Source: Callorhinchus milii
Lineage: Eukaryota
DNA: 64,000 nucleotides
Reading direction: 5' to 3'
Assembly: GCF_018977255.1 (NCBI RefSeq)
Contig: NW_024704748.1
Coordinates: 10,974,001-11,038,000 of the forward strand
A program made the position numbers. Of this stretch, positions 15,001 to 45,000 are shown in pieces. Each line of letters opens with the position of its first letter. Position 1 is the stretch's first letter.

Positions 15001-18000
15001 ATCCAGACCTTAATGTGAAGCGCTTTGAGACGTCTTGAAGACGTGATAAGGTACTGTATCAAATGCAAGGATTATTATTAATAATGTCCATCAAACACGC
15101 TGACAGGACATCAGCGGACTGGGATTCTCAGCTAGAGGAGGAGAAGTAGATTTGGGTGTCATCCGCATACATATGGACGTTGACCCTACATCTGCTGATG
15201 ACATCACCGAGAGGGAGCATGCAAGCCAGAAATGTATCATCAAATCTGTGAGCGGCAGTGAGGGCAGAAATTGTGTTTAATGCAGTACGAGTGTACAGCA
15301 ACCTGTGCTGTCTTACAAGCGACAGCCAGGAGCAAAACCACAAAGCCCACCGGGCCATGTAACCAGTGGGGGTTGGTGTTTTATTCATCAATCTGACAGT
15401 CCCAACCTTCCATTTTCCGAGGAAATTATTCCTTCTAAAACCTCGTGTTCATTTCCCTTCAAATTCCACACTCACGCTCGCTCAGCCCTTCGCAATCATC
15501 GTGACAAAACATTTGTCCATTAACATCTCAGTCGTCTAGATGTACGCAGTCAGTACAGGTGCTAATAACTGAGAAACCATTTAGTGATTTTACACTGCGG
15601 CTGAATATTTCATGATGCTCTGTGTGTTTCACCATTCAGTCAATGGACCTCTGTCACTTCAATCTCTTCTGACTGCCTTGACTGGTGCTGAAAAGCTCCA
15701 CCAAGATAGCTATCTTTCACAAACTGTCACTCATCGCAGCCTGTCACTGGCAAACTCTGCCGAACACTGTTACTCACAGGGAATAACTGCGACATTTGTT
15801 GCACCGTAATGCTCTGTTCTGATGGATCTGAACAAATGCGTTGTGATTAATAGACCTAACATTTGCAGACTACAATTAGAACGGGGTATCCGATGACCTT
15901 CTGCAATCCATCAGAAGAGTGTTAATTTCATATAAAGAATGTTGGGCTGGCACTCGTTAGAACTTGTTATAGTGAAGGCTCAAACAGTTCTGTGCTTGGT
16001 GTTCAAGCTGCGTTTAGCAATTCCAATTTGATGCTGACTAGACAGCACTAGCAGGGATGACTATTCTCCCTCAGTCCCACTTCGCCAGGCAATGAAAGCA
16101 AGCTGCTCTTTGAAATGTTGAGCTCCCATCATGCAAACTGACAAAGGCATGCTTTTCAAAACCCACATCCAAACTGTTGATCATTACTTATTTACAATGG
16201 CCTTGAGGCACATCTGCCTGTAAAAACCATATTTGATACAATATATACCATTTTTTTCACCTTTGTGCAATAAGAACCCCTTAGGCTGCTTTAAACCAGC
16301 ACTTCATATTGCCCATAAAATGTACCTTGTAATTCCAAAATATGTAATATTTAAGGTATGATATATCTTCGGGAAACGAATTTCTGAAAGCCCGGGTGAT
16401 TCTCTGTTCAGTAATTCCACGTTTTGCTGAGGACTACAACTTGAGAAAGCTCCACATAGCACAGAAGACCTGTCATTCGACTACCCGAGGGCCACTAATA
16501 TAAAGGATTACCCTACAGCGGCAAAAGTTCGGCACAGCTTTGAAGCATGCCAAAAGAGTGCAACCCACTCCCCAGAATTATTACTGCGCAGAGATCAAAA
16601 GAGGTTGGTGCATATTTTACTTGGTAAACAGGGACCTTCTGTTCTTCTGGAAAAAAAAGGGTTTGGAGCTTCTGTAAACCCCAAGCAATTTTCTTGTACA
16701 ATTGTTTCATATGCTAAGTGGATGAAGCTGTTTACTTGTCAAACACCGAGCGCAGGTTAACCCGTGACACGGCAACAACCAAATGTTCCTCTCACTCATC
16801 ACCAGCTCATAAACTTCCCGTTACCTAACCCGCCAATTATTTAGCTCTCCCCCCACCCCCCGCCCACTCTCTCTCTCTTTGGAGTCAAAATCAATTAATG
16901 ACAATTTAATGCAAAAGGACAAGATAAAAGGAATGTAAAAATTTGGGTTCATTTTTCATTGTTACGATACATCTCACATATGGCCTCAAGTACAGAAAAC
17001 AGTACTCCAAGGGACTCGCAGACACAGGGAATAGCCTGAGGGAAGATAACCGTATGAGTCTTTCTGATTGGTTACTGCTGTCATTAGTGCCATTGCTGTT
17101 TAAGAAATACATGTGGACAGACTGAGGTGACAGCTGAGAGTTTAAAGCCTGCATTCTCTCTAACAGCTTTGCCTACCCTCTTTCATGACAGAAATTTTTC
17201 AGCTCTATCATTAACCGCTGACAGGCTGACAGAATAAATACTTCAGCCTTTAAGGATTTTTCTCGCTTGCTCCCTTTCTCTTCAGACAGAGAGTTCTTTA
17301 GCTGTCTTTTCTTACCTCATCAATTTGGGCGAACCGTTGGGTGAATTTCGCATGCCTCCGTTGCGCTGCTTTTTTTTGGGTGACAATGCTGATGGATGTT
17401 CATCTTCAACTGCAACTGCAAACATACGGAAGATGTGAGATTAGGAGCCATTTTCAGAAGGATATGAAATGGAAATTAAATATTTAAAAAAATGCATATT
17501 TAAACAGAAAGTGACTCATTATAAAAGTTAAAGATCTCCACTATATAGCAATGAACAGTTACTCGGGGAAAAGAAAAGAAAATCAAATGAGGACTAAGTA
17601 CGGGCTAACGTGTTAATCAAAAACAAACCAGTTCAAAACCCTAATGGCATGACTAAGATAATCTAGCACTCAAGATTCCTAAGCACTAAACACACACGCA
17701 CACACGATATCAATTAAAGGAAAGTGGAAAACATTTTTTAATCAAAACAGGACGCACAGGGAAGGGACAACAGTTTTAATTTGGGAGGTTGTGGGTGAAG
17801 GAACCATCTGCCCCACTCAGAAAGGGTAAATAACAAAATTGCAGACTTTGTACAGGTTAAATATCTAAAATACAACAGTAATTCTTTTTAAGTAGAAGTC
17901 AAACCACTCAGTTAAAGGAGGTGTCACTCTAGAGCATGCAGCATTAACGCACTATTTCTGGCTCACAACCTTCAATGTTGAACCAGCATTGACTAGGGGA

Positions 18001-42000: not shown

Positions 42001-45000
42001 TGGCAAAAAAAAACATTGCACAATAGGCAAGTTGCCCCAGCATTATCCGGGCACCGTAGCCGTAAAATCTTGCATTGCATGTTTTAATGCATTCAGGCAC
42101 AGTAGCAAAGTAACTCCCGGTAAGAAATTAAGAACATTACTTACGCCGTTTGCAGCCACACTTTTTAATCCTTTTGGGATCTGTGATGTCATCGTGACAC
42201 GCTTTGCAGTAGAAGAATGCCCTGCGGAAAGACGATATAAAAATGATGCTCGAAGTCTGACTCCAGCTATGTGAAGTGTTATTCAATGTAAAGGGTGCTA
42301 CATTAATGCAGGTTGTTATCCAGTTTTGCAATTACAGTGCAAGTTAAATAACCTTCTGCTGCCACTTTATCCGCATCTCTCAGCATTTTCAAGATCTGGA
42401 TAATATCCCCTTCTGAATATTTTCTGCAGCTAAACCAACCAGGTTTTCAGTCGAACCTTAAAATACAAGAGCAACTCTGTTGCGTTTGAATTTTTCAAAA
42501 CTGGTTTCAAAGGCCGGTCTCAAGACCTTTCTCTTCGACCATGCCTTCAGCTCCCCTCTCGACTCTCTACCCCCTCCTCGCTCCCTCCCCTCACTCTGAC
42601 CATTTCCCCCCCCTGCTCGCGTCCTGACCCAACTGTCCAGCGCCTTGGGACGTCCTCCCGACGTGAAAGGTGCTCTATAAATGAAATCTTGTTGTTGTTG
42701 TTCCTGAATTGCGTTCATCAAGGTACTGGTTGTTAGGTGGCAAGTTTTATATTTCAGACTCCCTGTTGCTTTATCGTCGTCTCCAACACCAATCTTTGAC
42801 CAAAACTCTAACATGGCCTAATGCACTAGTGTACTATTTCCATTCCCCACCCCAACTGTCCTTGTGGCGTCTCTTAGTGACAATTAGTAGTACTGGTGAC
42901 TTCGGTGCTCGAAATTGGTATTGGATCTCAGCCTTCTAGTTGAGAGTCCAAAACTCGGTCCCACACCTCATAATCTTTCATTGAGCAGCTATTTTTCACA
43001 CACTTGTTTAAAGATTCACTGCCAGATCTTTCCAGAAAATAGGTTAAAGATTTTTATTGTTCAATCACTGCATTAATAGCAATGACTGAGATTCATTCTC
43101 GTACAGGTTTGGATAACAGGGCATGAAAGCTTTCCCCCAAAAGGGCAGTATTTCATTCACTGCATTTAACATATGAAACAATTAAGTGAAAGTAGACAGG
43201 AATTGTCTCGTTATCAAGAATAATAATAATAATCCTTGCATTTGATATAGTGCTTTTCACGTCTTCTAGAATAGACTGTAAAGTGAATTAAATGTATAGT
43301 TGTGAGCAACATGCGGCAGCCAATTGCACATAGCAGTGTCCCACAAACAGTCGTGGATTGAAGTGACCAATTTATTATTGTTTTTTTTCTTGATGGATTA
43401 TTATCAGGAGTGTGGAGTAAGGAAATTTGCCCAAGGTTTCACCCTACCAGGAATCAAATCAAAGGGACCACCTACCTTTTTACTTCTTTGGCATCACTTG
43501 CAATGAAAAATCCCAACGTGCCTTCTTGAATCTTGACGTTGTTCCCAGGATTGATTAATATGCTACTCAGTAAAAAAACACAAAAAATACGTTCCCATTA
43601 GCTGCTGTTTGAGAGAAACTTCATCTCAATAGTGTAATAATCAAAGGGGAATGGTACAAGGATCTTTACTGAAAAGAAGTCACTCTCAAATGGATTGCAC
43701 TAACTCCTGATAAAATTCAACGGCTGAATACATTTCACAGATGACTGTGAATGATTCAATTGACGCCTGAAATGAAATGGATTATTGGATTCTTAATATT
43801 TAGATGCATGGTTAGCAAAATACCATCTGCTTGACAGCATCTCCCAAAATAAGTTCTCACTTTTCTCCAATTCTATAGCCTTCTGATAACAAAGCAGAAG
43901 TAAAAACCTTCTTCTGGATATTGGTAACTCCAAACTAAATACTGCTTCTAATTCAGGTATAGTTTTGATGCTTATTCCTGCAGATTTTCCATTATCTCTC
44001 TCCAAAACACACTTTCTATCTCCTTGCGACCTAAATTACCTCCTTCGTGTATTGAGGACACTCCCTCCCCATATCATGATATATTTTCCAACTGAGAAGG
44101 TTGGTGATCTCTTGACCTCAGGCATATTGTTTCTGAGCCAACCACAAGGAAATGTTTGCACATATTTCCTGGGTGTCCGTTCTCAAAATTGCCCTTCACA
44201 ACTATGTACGTGTGTTCTCTTATCCTGCCTGCTCTCATCACAGAAAAACACCCTCTTTTTCTGGGTTTATTTTCTTCAACTTATTCAACATTTTATATAC
44301 TTCTATCAGATCCTTTCTGAGATGTTTCTTTTTAAGACTGCAATAAACATCATGCTAAAAATCAGTTACTGTAGCCTGTACAATTCCCCAGTGATTGAAA
44401 CGTTATTTGCAACATAATTCATTAAATACTGTTTGAGCTATGTGCATAATGACACATAGCTTAAAGTACAAGGCAATACAAATCTAGATTATAACTAGTA
44501 CACAGCACAGCTATATGTTAGGTTCGGTAACCTGGCCCAAAGGAAAGAGATGGCTGATACACTGACGAGATTCACAACGCCCGAGTATGTTATCAGACTG
44601 CAGACTGATATCCTGCAATAACCCCAATTGTTCAGAATAAACATCCAGCTCATTCTTCTGGGCACTCTCAGTACTCTTAGTTGGACAAGATATTCAGCTT
44701 TCTGCTCACAAAGGAAAGAGGATAGAAAGCAAATGCACACTTAGGACATGGCATGTTCAAAAGAAAGAGTAAAATTGCTTCCAGGATTTAACTTCTTGCT
44801 CTTGATGGCTTTTAAGGCCATTATTTTTATTAGCCGAGAATAGAAGCCTTCCATTGGTTACCTGGTCTATTGCAAGATCGCTTCCAAATATAATGGTGAT
44901 TGATTTTATATCTGGACAAAATATTATTGCCCCGACTGAAGAAACTGAAGAATATACATTCCACTGCATTCCTGCAATGATCAAATAGCAATTTACTATT

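What the first reader, a model, noticed from the sequence alone, without database searches (positions are those of the whole stretch)
17410..42144. Expanded array of phase-1 cassette exons in the RCK1-RCK2 linker (site 2)
Seen: this 25-kb intron contains well-supported frame-preserving phase 1-1 units of 9, 174, 33 and 288 nt plus a +6-nt acceptor. Further candidates lie at 39082-39192, 25955-26026 and 21075-21143, with an orphan acceptor at 36686. Known: mammalian site 2 has IYF, STREX and a 29-aa exon; I did not find the 29-aa exon here. Inference: a larger, partly lineage-specific combinatorial toolkit for tuning BK. This may matter in cartilaginous fishes, where BK tunes electroreceptor oscillations.
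Basis: partly seen in the sequence, partly recalled or inferred. Interest (0 to 1): 0.65.

Follow-up and report, generated by a model that had tools for sequence, protein, structure and literature searches.

The report
BK channel linker splice-cassette intron
This intron of a BK potassium-channel gene carries the known IYF and STREX cassette exons, an 11-residue cassette matching one in skate electroreceptor BK, and a probable counterpart of the mammalian 29-residue exon; the other proposed exons look like chance.

Summary
The interval is the 24,735-nt phase-1 intron between the exon ending ...CGCKR (42221-42145, minus strand) and the exon beginning [18 protein letters not shown] (17409-17316). 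The gene is a non-human BK alpha (KCNMA1-type) gene.

- **9 nt (40518-40510)** reads L-I-Y-F.
- **174 nt (37318-37145)** is STREX. It matches STREX-bearing BK chains in the PDB at E=8.7e-25.
- **33 nt (25593-25561)** has the best splice-site pair in the intron. It encodes PKYNYNGFITS-I. This matches the insert PRYGYNGYLSTI, at the same junction, in a published little-skate ampullary BK cDNA.
- **288 nt (20695-20408)** has a strong acceptor. Its peptide starts like the mammalian 29-residue exon (L-K-x-E/A-A, D at position 12, P at 21 and 29). Its 3' end is undefined, because every in-phase donor is weak.
- **+6 acceptor (17415)** is real sequence, a tandem TTGCAG, but its use is untested.

The three further candidates and the "orphan" acceptor do not exceed control counts.

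UGCAUG lies within 200 nt of all four supported cassettes.

Verdict: a known splicing hotspot with one extra, skate-type cassette. The "expanded array" is only partly supported. Expression and conservation could not be tested here.

The parts
42145..42221 (-). Constitutive exon upstream of site 2 ([25 protein letters not shown] + first base C of the split codon); donor GGC|gtaagt, phase 1
   Evidence: Sequence read; translation. The motif [10 protein letters not shown] is given as the vertebrate sequence up to the c2 splice point in PMC10486799.
40510..40518 (-). IYF microexon (9 nt; TG ATC TAT T reads L-I-Y-F with the flanking bases)
   Evidence: The only 1 of 89 open 9-nt units that reads LIYF. 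It lies between the upstream exon and STREX. A 3-residue IYF exon at site 2 is stated in PMC3840924. Donor gtgagt scores 6.0; acceptor is weak, rank 608 of 1,510.
40426..40431 (-). UGCAUG 79 nt downstream of the IYF microexon
37321..37330 (-). ACATGATTAT, 3-12 nt upstream of the STREX acceptor; resembles the CaMKIV-responsive element (CaRRE) of the mammalian STREX 3' splice site
   Evidence: One search found 4 matches to ACATNRTTAT in the window against 1.42 expected; this is one of them. PMC9456152 passages place a CaRRE bound by hnRNP L at the STREX upstream 3' splice site. The consensus letters are recalled, not seen in a call.
37145..37318 (-). STREX cassette, 174 nt, phase 1-1 (P-KISIYKRMKLACCFDCGGCERDCACMSGSVHSNMDTLERTFPLSSVSVNDCSTSLRA-F)
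   Evidence: Matches PDB BK chains 8z3s_A, 9jo3_A and 6nd0_A, the only 3 hits, at E=8.7e-25 to 1e-24. By my count from the alignment, 45 of 57 residues are identical. Donor gtaagt; weak acceptor, rank 967 of 1,510.
36962..36967 (-). UGCAUG 178 nt downstream of STREX
25652..25657 (-). UGCAUG 59 nt upstream of the 33-nt cassette
25561..25593 (-). 33-nt cassette, phase 1-1: P-KYNYNGFITS-I
   Evidence: Best splice-site pair of the 57 good candidates, 12.0 and 9.0; sequence. Same junction, same length and 6 of 12 identical plus 5 conservative residues against the skate insert PRYGYNGYLSTI. The motif Y.YNG[FY] occurs once in all six frames of the window.
20570..20695 (-). Probable counterpart of the mammalian 29-residue exon (e22): shared acceptor at 20695, shortest plausible form 126 nt (L-KDEAEPGLLNDSLRAHSTKPHTLPNTVPITEGPEAVRLVNN-L), donor ACC|gtaaag
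   Evidence: Acceptor rank 15 of 1,510. It is the only 1 of 1,510 acceptors whose phase-1 peptide starts LK.EA. By-eye match to the rat and human inserts. The donor is weak, 0.7.
20408..20569 (-).
   Evidence: The frame stays open for 383 nt from the acceptor. The donor scores 2.75, rank 258 of 1,513. No Pfam, PDB or Atlas match. In rat the matching exon also has a form extended into the intron.
20357..20362 (-). UGCAUG 46 nt downstream of the 288-nt donor (208 nt from the 126-nt donor)
17410..17415 (-). +6 tandem acceptor (gcag|TTGCAG|TTGAAG); its use would add two residues (L-A-V-E instead of L-E)
   Evidence: Sequence. Acceptor score 7.6 against 4.4 for the acceptor at 17409. No transcript evidence. 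Both skate cDNAs printed lack such residues.
17316..17409 (-). Constitutive exon downstream of site 2 ([32 protein letters not shown])
   Evidence: KKKQRNG is given as the conserved downstream basic cluster in PMC10486799.

Best explanation
The interval is the site-2 (C2, 'STREX') intron of a BK-channel alpha-subunit gene on the minus strand, from a vertebrate that is neither human nor the little skate.

It holds four cassette exons in a fixed 5'-to-3' order:
1. IYF, 9 nt.
2. STREX, 174 nt.
3. An 11-residue Tyr/Asn-rich cassette, 33 nt.
4. An e22-like cassette that starts at 20695. Its end is not defined: 126 nt, 288 nt, or another in-phase donor.
A tandem acceptor sits 6 nt upstream of the next constitutive exon.

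Shown: every unit begins with two bases and ends with one base of a split codon, and has a length divisible by three. Any subset spliced in genomic order therefore keeps the frame. All 26 possible junction codons are sense codons.

Inferred: each choice changes the length and chemistry of the disordered RCK1-RCK2 linker.
- STREX adds the Cys-rich, palmitoylated, PKA-sensitive segment that shifts gating to more negative voltages in mammals.
- The 11-residue cassette widens the gap between the two basic clusters [10 protein letters not shown] and KKKQRNG. One group reads these clusters as a bipartite nuclear-localisation signal.
- Inclusion is probably set by RBFOX-type factors, because UGCAUG lies next to all four cassettes.
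- For STREX, a CaRRE-like element at its weak 3' splice site probably also acts.

The remaining candidates in the intron are chance open frames.
For: Gene identity:
- The exon at 9169-8951 matches BK alpha chains in the PDB at E=2.5e-41. There were 27 hits, 26 of them BK/Slo-type chains and one the related KCNU1 chain.
- It and the next exon match Pfam Slo-like_RCK at 1e-16 and 1.3e-15.

Cassettes:
- IYF: 1 of 89.
- STREX: E=8.7e-25.
- 33-nt cassette: top-ranked splice sites. Homologous to the insert in skate cDNA KY355737, which is absent from skate cDNA KJ756351. The cassette is therefore alternative in skate.
- e22-like acceptor: it lies after STREX, as mammalian e22 does. It ranks 15 of 1,510. 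It is the only acceptor with an LK.EA start, 1 of 1,510, and the whole window holds one other LK.EA in six frames. Without gaps it is identical to the rat insert at 7 of 30 positions and to the human insert at 6 of 30, counted by eye. By my own arithmetic that is roughly 2e-3 by chance at 6% per position.

Frame compatibility.

Regulation:
- UGCAUG lies within 200 nt of 4 of 4 cassettes. Random placement gives P=0.0007.
- It is the only 1 of 1,243 hexamers of similar abundance that does so.
- Kcnma1 is named a major RBFOX target, and UGCAUG the RBFOX consensus, in PMC5577181 passages.
- The CaRRE-like motif is, with its location confirmed by PMC9456152 passages.

Functional statements on STREX come from PMC3840924 passages and from the abstract of PMC2963414 in the listing.
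Against: - No transcript of this species was seen, so inclusion or skipping is not shown for any cassette here.
- The e22-like assignment rests on a by-eye comparison with short, fast-evolving peptides. There is no in-phase GT at the mammalian length of 87 nt. Its in-phase donors score 4.7 or less.
- An open frame of this length is not rare. 20 of 1,510 AG sites have at least 288 nt open in phase 1. 23 stop-to-stop ORFs of at least 95 residues overlap the intron, and several longer ones look non-coding.
- The splice-site matrices are recalled and crude. They rank the true IYF and STREX acceptors 608th and 967th of 1,510, so they cannot exclude weak real exons among the rejected candidates.
- The UGCAUG test windows were chosen after seeing the data. 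With the 126-nt donor, only 3 of 4 cassettes have a site within 200 nt (P=0.017).
- The codon-usage test could not tell even known exons from intron.
Confidence: 0.7

Rival explanations
1. The array has only three real cassettes: IYF, STREX and the 33-nt exon. On this reading the 288-nt unit is a chance open frame behind a chance T-run and AG, or a decayed relic of e22 with no working donor.
For: - All in-phase donors are weak: 0.7 for the 126-nt form, 2.75 for 288 nt, and 4.7 at best.
- There is no GT at the mammalian 87-nt position (sequence).
- Open frames of this size occur by chance.
- No Pfam, PDB or Atlas match.
Against: - An LK.EA start at a top-15 acceptor, placed correctly after STREX.
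- Further shared positions with the rat and human e22 peptides.
- UGCAUG 46 nt past the 288-nt donor.
- Among the 17 acceptors scoring at least 9.5, this is the only one followed by at least 288 open bases.
Confidence: 0.22
2. One reading: a much enlarged toolkit in which 39192-39082, 26026-25955, 21143-21075 and an exon starting at 36686 are also used, alongside the five main units.
For: - Each is an open phase 1-1 AG...GT unit.
- 21143-21075 has a strong donor, rank 7 of 1,513.
- True cassettes here can have poor acceptors, so weak scores do not exclude these units.
Against: - Site ranks are ordinary: acceptors 183, 918 and 691 of 1,510, and donors 534 and 97 of 1,513 for the first two.
- Control frames and the antisense strand give as many units of equal quality.
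- No Pfam match for any of the three.
- UGCAUG lies within 200 nt of only 1 of 3, as expected by chance (P=0.47).
- No similarity to any published site-2 insert that I saw.
Confidence: 0.05
3. The full 288-nt unit, exactly, is the real exon: a long lineage-specific form of e22 that adds 96 residues with several basophilic-kinase serine motifs.
For: - The frame is open through 288 nt and beyond.
- UGCAUG lies 46 nt past this donor.
- RKGS, RRLS and RARS lie in the extension.
- Rat e22 also has a longer form that reads on into the intron (PMC3393747).
Against: - The donor TCT|gtaggt ranks 258 of 1,513.
- Eight other in-phase GTs lie in the same open frame, at 21, 126, 174, 189, 204, 213, 225 and 354 nt.
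- The codon-usage score of the extension is average for intron (P=0.52), although that test lacks power.
Confidence: 0.15

Closest known systems
Mammalian KCNMA1 site 2 / C2 alternative splicing (no insert, IYF, STREX, IYF+STREX, 28/29-residue exon)
   Same: - Same junction, after ...CGCKR and before L-EDE...PKKKQRNG.
- Same phase.
- Same order: IYF, then STREX, then the e22-type exon.
- STREX is 45 of 57 residues identical to the human STREX chain.
- A weak STREX 3' splice site carries a CaRRE-like element.
   Different: - An additional 33-nt cassette lies between STREX and the e22-like exon.
- The e22-like exon cannot be 87 nt here.
- The next exon has a tandem +6 acceptor.
None of these appears in the mammalian repertoire as given in PMC3840924, PMC3393747 or PMC3984161.
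12-residue replacement (net 11-residue insert) PRYGYNGYLSTI in little-skate ampullary BK cDNA KY355737
   Same: - Same junction: P replaces L after KR, and I precedes the next exon.
- Same length, 33 nt implied.
- 6 of 12 residues identical and 5 conservative.
   Different: - Different species: the flanking exon reads EDEHPSA here and QDENPSV in skate.
- The papers call the insert unique to that cDNA. In the text I could read, they do not describe a genomic exon.
- Here it is seen as a discrete exon with strong splice sites, 11.6 kb downstream of STREX.
Rat e22 and its '+29 aa' extended form (PMC3393747)
   Same: A cassette after STREX whose reading frame can run on past the first donor into the intron, giving a longer insert. 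The window's unit likewise has several in-phase donors in one long open frame.
   Different: Sequence similarity is confined to the start and a few later positions. The lengths differ, and use of any donor is unproven here.

Membership tests
BK channel alpha subunit gene (KCNMA1 orthologue) | Exons encode the Slo-type RCK gating-ring sequence | tested here: met
   PDB: BK alpha chains at E=2.5e-41, with 67 of 73 residues identical to a human chain by my count. Pfam Slo-like_RCK at 1e-16 and 1.3e-15 for two separate exons.
BK channel alpha subunit gene (KCNMA1 orthologue) | Linker junction ...[10 protein letters not shown] | L...SPKKKQRNG | tested here: met
   Translations, compared with the motif as printed in PMC10486799.
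STREX exon (e21) | 58-residue phase 1-1 cassette at site 2 with the Cys-rich CCFDC...C.C core | tested here: met
   174 nt. The only PDB hits are 3 BK sequences that carry STREX, at E=8.7e-25.
STREX exon (e21) | Regulated inclusion (stress hormones, depolarisation through CaRRE) | not testable with these tools
   Only a CaRRE-like motif at the acceptor was seen. There are no transcripts.
IYF exon (e20) | 9-nt cassette giving L-I-Y-F, upstream of STREX | tested here: met
   1 of 89 candidates. Its position at 40518-40510 lies between 42145 and 37318.
Skate-type 11-residue site-2 cassette | 33 nt, phase 1-1, P-[KR]-Y-x-Y-N-G-[FY]-[IL]-[ST]-[ST] followed by I from the split codon | tested here: met
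   Searches compared by eye. The skate peptide was not put into an alignment tool.
Skate-type 11-residue site-2 cassette | Present in some transcripts and absent from others | not testable with these tools
   Shown only for skate, where KY355737 has it and KJ756351 lacks it. Not shown for this species.
Mammalian 28/29-residue exon (e22) | Phase 1-1 cassette lying between STREX and the L-EDE exon | tested here: met
   The acceptor at 20695 lies between 37145 and 17409, and the frame is open. The exon order e20-e21-e22 is recalled from Chen et al. 2005, which I did not read.
Mammalian 28/29-residue exon (e22) | Peptide L-K-V-[AE]-A-R...D-P-F...T-P-N-S...P-V | tested here: inconclusive
   The window reads L-K-D-E-A-E, with D at position 12, P at 21 and 29, and L-P-N-T at 24-27. 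That is 7 of 30 positions (rat) and 6 of 30 (human) identical without gaps, by eye. No alignment statistic was computed, because the published peptides were not typed into a tool.
Mammalian 28/29-residue exon (e22) | Length 87 nt | tested here: not met
   There is no GT at exon positions 88-89. In-phase donors lie at 21, 126, 174, 189, 204, 213, 225, 288 and 354 nt.
Tandem (NAGNAG-like) alternative acceptor | Two AGs a multiple of 3 apart behind one polypyrimidine tract, both used | tested here: inconclusive
   The two CAGs are 6 nt apart, with scores of 7.6 and 4.4. Use of both cannot be tested here.

The most novel reading that the evidence does not exclude
The linker of this animal's BK channel is built from at least five independently selectable phase-1 modules under common RBFOX-type control. 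Two of them are not part of the mammalian set.
- One is the 11-residue Tyr/Asn-rich module used in skate electroreceptor BK channels. It is shown here to be a discrete, strongly defined exon in a second species, and so is probably an old cassette rather than a cloning oddity.
- The other is a long e22-derived module of up to 96 residues. It would add three basophilic-kinase serine motifs (RKGS, RRLS, RARS) to the RCK1-RCK2 linker.
Probability: 0.15. Interest if true: 0.6.

Novelty: new member of a known kind. Interest (0 to 1): 0.4.

Why it matters
Site 2 is the best-studied tuning point of BK channels. Mammals are credited with three cassettes there.

The insert seen in one skate electroreceptor cDNA corresponds here to a clean, strongly defined 33-nt exon in another species' genome. 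This makes it a bona fide cassette whose effect on gating, trafficking or nuclear targeting can now be tested. It also gives a concrete exon to look for in other vertebrates.

The work corrects two points. The 29-residue exon is probably not missing. And open frame plus AG/GT alone does not identify cassettes in a 25-kb intron.

The UGCAUG and CaRRE-like elements suggest that the regulatory logic of this hotspot is old.

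Tried and rejected
**Tests that could not decide**
- Codon-usage log-likelihood, trained on 7 exons of the window. Known exons did not stand out from stop-free intron segments (leave-one-out P from 0.05 to 0.82). The test has no power and its values for the candidates are not used.
- Splice-site matrices with recalled frequencies. They flag the 33-nt exon and the 20695 acceptor, but they rank the true IYF and STREX acceptors 608th and 967th of 1,510. They cannot be used to reject candidates.
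- ORF length. It is not significant on its own.

**Searches with no result**
- Pfam on 10 separate exon or candidate translations. Only the two RCK exons matched (plus a weak below-cutoff Peptidase_C69 hit on one); none of the cassettes or candidates did.
- PDB search with the 117-residue open frame from 20693. It returned 2 hits at E=0.69 and 1.6, neither a BK chain. I read them as chance.
- ESM Atlas with the 95-residue translation gave no usable hit.
- Rfam over the whole window found only 3 tRNA-like matches.

**Repeats**
- A self-comparison of the window shows that 1,782 of 24,735 intron bases are repeated within the window.
- The good-looking units 24966-24811, 21846-21586 and 19800-19612 do overlap repeats or lie antisense to transposon-like ORFs. 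I rejected them.

**Literature**
- Text searches for the skate motif and for variants of it found only the three versions of one work, plus one unrelated paper.
- Papers not held: PMC5354974, PMC4724458 and PMC2897565.
- Supplementary Table S1 of PMC10486799 is a cross-species BlastP of this linker. It may list other species with the 11-residue insert, but supplements are closed and I could not see it.

**Not done**
Exons were searched one by one.
No vertebrate genome or transcript collection was available. Conservation and expression stayed unchecked.

Full report
**What the interval is**

On the minus strand, the exon 42221-42145 encodes [25 protein letters not shown] and ends with the first base (C) of a split codon before gtaagt. 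The exon 17409-17316 begins with TT, completing a Leu codon, and reads [30 protein letters not shown]. The intron between them is 24,735 nt and has no N.

The gene is a BK-channel alpha subunit.
- A downstream exon (9169-8951), searched on its own, matches BK alpha chains of the PDB at E=2.5e-41.
- That exon and the next one (7217-7023) match Pfam Slo-like_RCK at 1e-16 and 1.3e-15.
- PMC10486799 gives [10 protein letters not shown] and KKKQRNG as the sequences on either side of the splice point called site 4 or c2. PMC3840924 calls the same place site 2, the STREX site in the RCK1-RCK2 linker.

I do not take the window for human.
- By my count, 6 of 73 residues differ from the human chain, and 12 of 57 differ in STREX.
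- It is not the little skate either. The skate linker exon reads QDENPSV where the window reads EDEHPSA.
- The species could not be determined. No vertebrate genome collection was on hand.

I did not build or search a joined spliced sequence. Only the three-base junction codons were computed.

**Is a frame-preserving unit more than chance?**

No, not by itself.
- The intron holds 1,936 open phase 1-1 AG...GT units, 554 of them at least 90 nt long.
- I scored sites with crude splice-site matrices whose frequencies are recalled, not curated. 57 units have both sites at a score of 3 or more. The other two phases on the same strand give 37 and 47. The three phases of the antisense strand give 35, 23 and 30.
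- With a summed score of 12 or more the count is 18, against 11, 15, 9, 4 and 10 in the same controls.
- Five of those 18 are the 33-nt exon or use the 20695 acceptor. The other 13 lie within the control range.
- Long open frames are also common. 20 of 1,510 AG sites are followed by at least 288 open bases in phase 1, against 16 and 17 in the other phases. 23 stop-to-stop ORFs of at least 95 residues overlap the intron, including non-coding-looking ones of 155, 134 and 133 residues on the sense strand.

Any claim therefore has to rest on something other than AG, GT and an open frame.

**The units that homology supports**

1. *IYF.* Of 89 open 9-nt units, exactly one reads L-I-Y-F with the flanking bases: ag|TGATCTATT|gtgagt at 40518-40510. 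It lies upstream of STREX.
2. *STREX.* The 174-nt unit 37318-37145 has a gtaagt donor. Searched alone, it hits only three PDB sequences, all BK chains that carry STREX, at E=8.7e-25 to 1e-24. 45 of 57 residues are identical.
3. *The 33-nt unit.* 25593-25561 reads ttccattgtcttcag|CAAAG...CTCAA|gtaagt.
 - It has the best site pair of all 57 good candidates. The acceptor ranks 4 of 1,510 and the donor 14 of 1,513.
 - It encodes P-KYNYNGFITS-I.
 - Two versions of one work print the linker of two little-skate BK cDNAs. KJ756351 reads KR-L-QDENPS. KY355737, cloned from ampullae of Lorenzini, reads KR-PRYGYNGYLSTI-QDENPS.
 - Junction, phase and implied length (33 nt) are the same. 6 of 12 residues are identical, 5 more are conservative, and 1 differs.
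 - This is the same exon. In skate it is alternative and is used in electroreceptor BK.
 - The authors call the insert unique to that cDNA. Text searches for the motif and its variants found only that work's three versions plus one unrelated paper.
 - The work's Table S1, a cross-species search of this linker, may show more species, but supplements were closed.

**The 288-nt unit**

Its acceptor, tttatttttttttacttggcag|TAAAGG at 20695, ranks 15 of 1,510. Among the 17 acceptors scoring at least 9.5, it is the only one followed by at least 288 open bases; the frame runs 383 nt. It lies after STREX, where I recall mammalian e22 to lie (Chen et al. 2005, not read).

Its peptide begins L-K-D-E-A-E.
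- The rat 29-residue insert printed in PMC3393747 begins L-K-V-E-A-R.
- The human one printed in PMC3984161 begins L-K-V-A-A-R.
- By eye and without gaps, the window shares 7 of 30 positions with rat and 6 of 30 with human: L1, K2, (E4), A5, D12, P21 and P29.
- It has L-P-N-T where the mammals have T-P-N-S four residues earlier.
- It has R-L-V three residues before the 126-nt donor, where human has R-L-V four residues before its exon end.
- An LK.EA start occurs at 1 of 1,510 acceptors, and once elsewhere in all six frames of the window.

I read this as the probable counterpart of the 29-residue exon, at about two chances in three. I did not put the published peptides into an alignment tool, so no formal statistic backs this.

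The 3' end is open.
- There is no GT at the mammalian 87-nt position.
- In-phase GTs lie at 21, 126, 174, 189, 204, 213, 225, 288 and 354 nt. None scores above 4.7. The 126-nt gtaaag donor scores 0.7 and the 288-nt gtaggt donor 2.75.
- The rat exon also has a form that reads on into its intron, so more than one donor is conceivable.
- The translation has no Pfam, PDB or Atlas match. That is expected for a disordered linker and equally for non-coding DNA.

**The +6 acceptor**

The sequence gcag|TTGCAG|TTGAAG is a tandem hexamer. The upstream AG scores higher than the homology-defined one, 7.6 against 4.4. Its use would give L-A-V-E instead of L-E. Neither skate cDNA has such residues. Its use in this species is untested.

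**The further candidates**

The units 39192-39082, 26026-25955 and 21143-21075 have ordinary site ranks. Their acceptors rank 183, 918 and 691 of 1,510. Their donors rank 534, 97 and 7 of 1,513. They have no Pfam match and no likeness to any published site-2 insert that I saw.

The AG at 36686 scores 7.1 and opens 105 bases, inside a long non-coding-looking ORF.

Several better-scoring units overlap window-internal repeats or lie antisense to transposon-like ORFs.

I cannot exclude that one of these is used, because true cassettes here have poor acceptors. Nothing speaks for them.

**Regulatory signals (found in passing; they bear on the verdict)**

*UGCAUG.* The motif occurs 13 times on the sense strand of the intron. 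A copy lies within 200 nt of all four supported cassettes:
- 79 nt downstream of IYF;
- 178 nt downstream of STREX;
- 59 nt upstream of the 33-nt exon;
- 46 nt downstream of the 288-nt donor.

Random placement gives P=0.0007. With the 126-nt donor the count is 3 of 4 and P=0.017. Of 1,243 hexamers with 8-20 sites, UGCAUG is the only one that reaches 4 of 4. The 200-nt window was chosen after seeing the data. PMC5577181 names UGCAUG as the RBFOX consensus and Kcnma1 as a major RBFOX target.

*CaRRE-like motif.* ACATGATTAT lies 3-12 nt upstream of the weak STREX acceptor. The pattern has 4 matches in the window against 1.42 expected. It fits my recalled consensus for the CaMKIV-responsive element. 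PMC9456152 places that element at this 3' splice site in rat.

**How it most likely works**

Shown: every supported unit starts with two bases and ends with one base of a split codon, and has a length divisible by three. All 26 possible junction codons in genomic order are sense codons. Any subset therefore keeps the frame.

Inferred: the cell picks subsets, and so changes the length and chemistry of the RCK1-RCK2 linker.
- In mammals, STREX speeds activation, slows deactivation and shifts activation by up to 50 mV. It also reverses the effect of PKA (passages of PMC3840924).
- STREX is palmitoylated (abstract of PMC2963414 in the listing).
- The 11-residue cassette widens the spacer of the two basic clusters. 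The skate authors show that these clusters act as a nuclear-localisation signal (section 3.2 of PMC10486799).
- The effect of the 11-residue cassette on gating is unknown.

**Comparison, novelty and score**

This is the known BK site-2 hotspot. It has the mammalian set plus a skate-type cassette, and it has an e22-type exon of different length.

What is new here is modest.
- A published "unique" cDNA insert is a discrete, strongly defined exon in a second species.
- The regulatory motifs around the cassettes look shared.

Interest is 0.4.

Noticed in passing
window 37321-37330 (-): ACATGATTAT lies 3-12 nt upstream of the weak STREX acceptor. It fits 10 of 11 positions of my recalled CaRRE1 consensus. 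The pattern ACATNRTTAT has 4 matches in the window against 1.42 expected. This suggests that depolarisation control of STREX is old.
   Followed up: partly
window 40426-40431, 36962-36967, 25652-25657, 20357-20362 (all -): UGCAUG (the RBFOX consensus) lies within 200 nt of all four homology-supported cassettes. Random placement gives P=0.0007. It is the only 1 of 1,243 comparable hexamers to do so, even though the motif is under-represented in the window overall, 37 matches against 56 expected.
   Followed up: yes
window 38258-38269 (-): A 12-nt microexon-like unit, ttttttttctctcag|CTAACGGGTACT|gtaagc, in phase 1-1. Site scores are 10.5 and 5.3, and UGCAUG lies 24 nt upstream. It would add P-N-G-Y. 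It sits between IYF and STREX.
   Followed up: partly
window 22137-22208 (-), 52293-52364 (-), 57446-57502 (+): tRNA-like sequences: Rfam tRNA at 59, 53.5 and 35.3 bits. ARAGORN calls two of them Glu-CTC and Ala-TGC. The first lies in a segment repeated up to 11 times in the window, so these are probably heads of a tRNA-derived SINE rather than tRNA genes.
   Followed up: partly
window 13671-14606 (-), 51440-51826 (-), 24678-24995 (+), 21340-21708 (+): Transposon-like open frames share a ...GGRAFS..AP.LWNS(I/L)P... type motif; one is a 312-residue ORF. They explain some good-looking antisense 'exons' in the intron. I did not classify them.
   Followed up: no
window 20805 (-): A very strong acceptor-like site, tttcttttctgttgttgcag, scoring 12.9 and ranking second in the intron. 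It lies 110 nt upstream of the e22-like acceptor. Its phase-1 frame closes after 110 nt. Its meaning is unknown.
   Followed up: no
window 43475-43561, 11924-12046, 8951-9169, 7023-7217, about 55760-55870 (all -): Other constitutive BK exons are recognisable in the window: [70 protein letters not shown], the two RCK2 exons, and an exon with ...[17 protein letters not shown].... I did not locate the site-1 (SRKR) microexon.
   Followed up: partly
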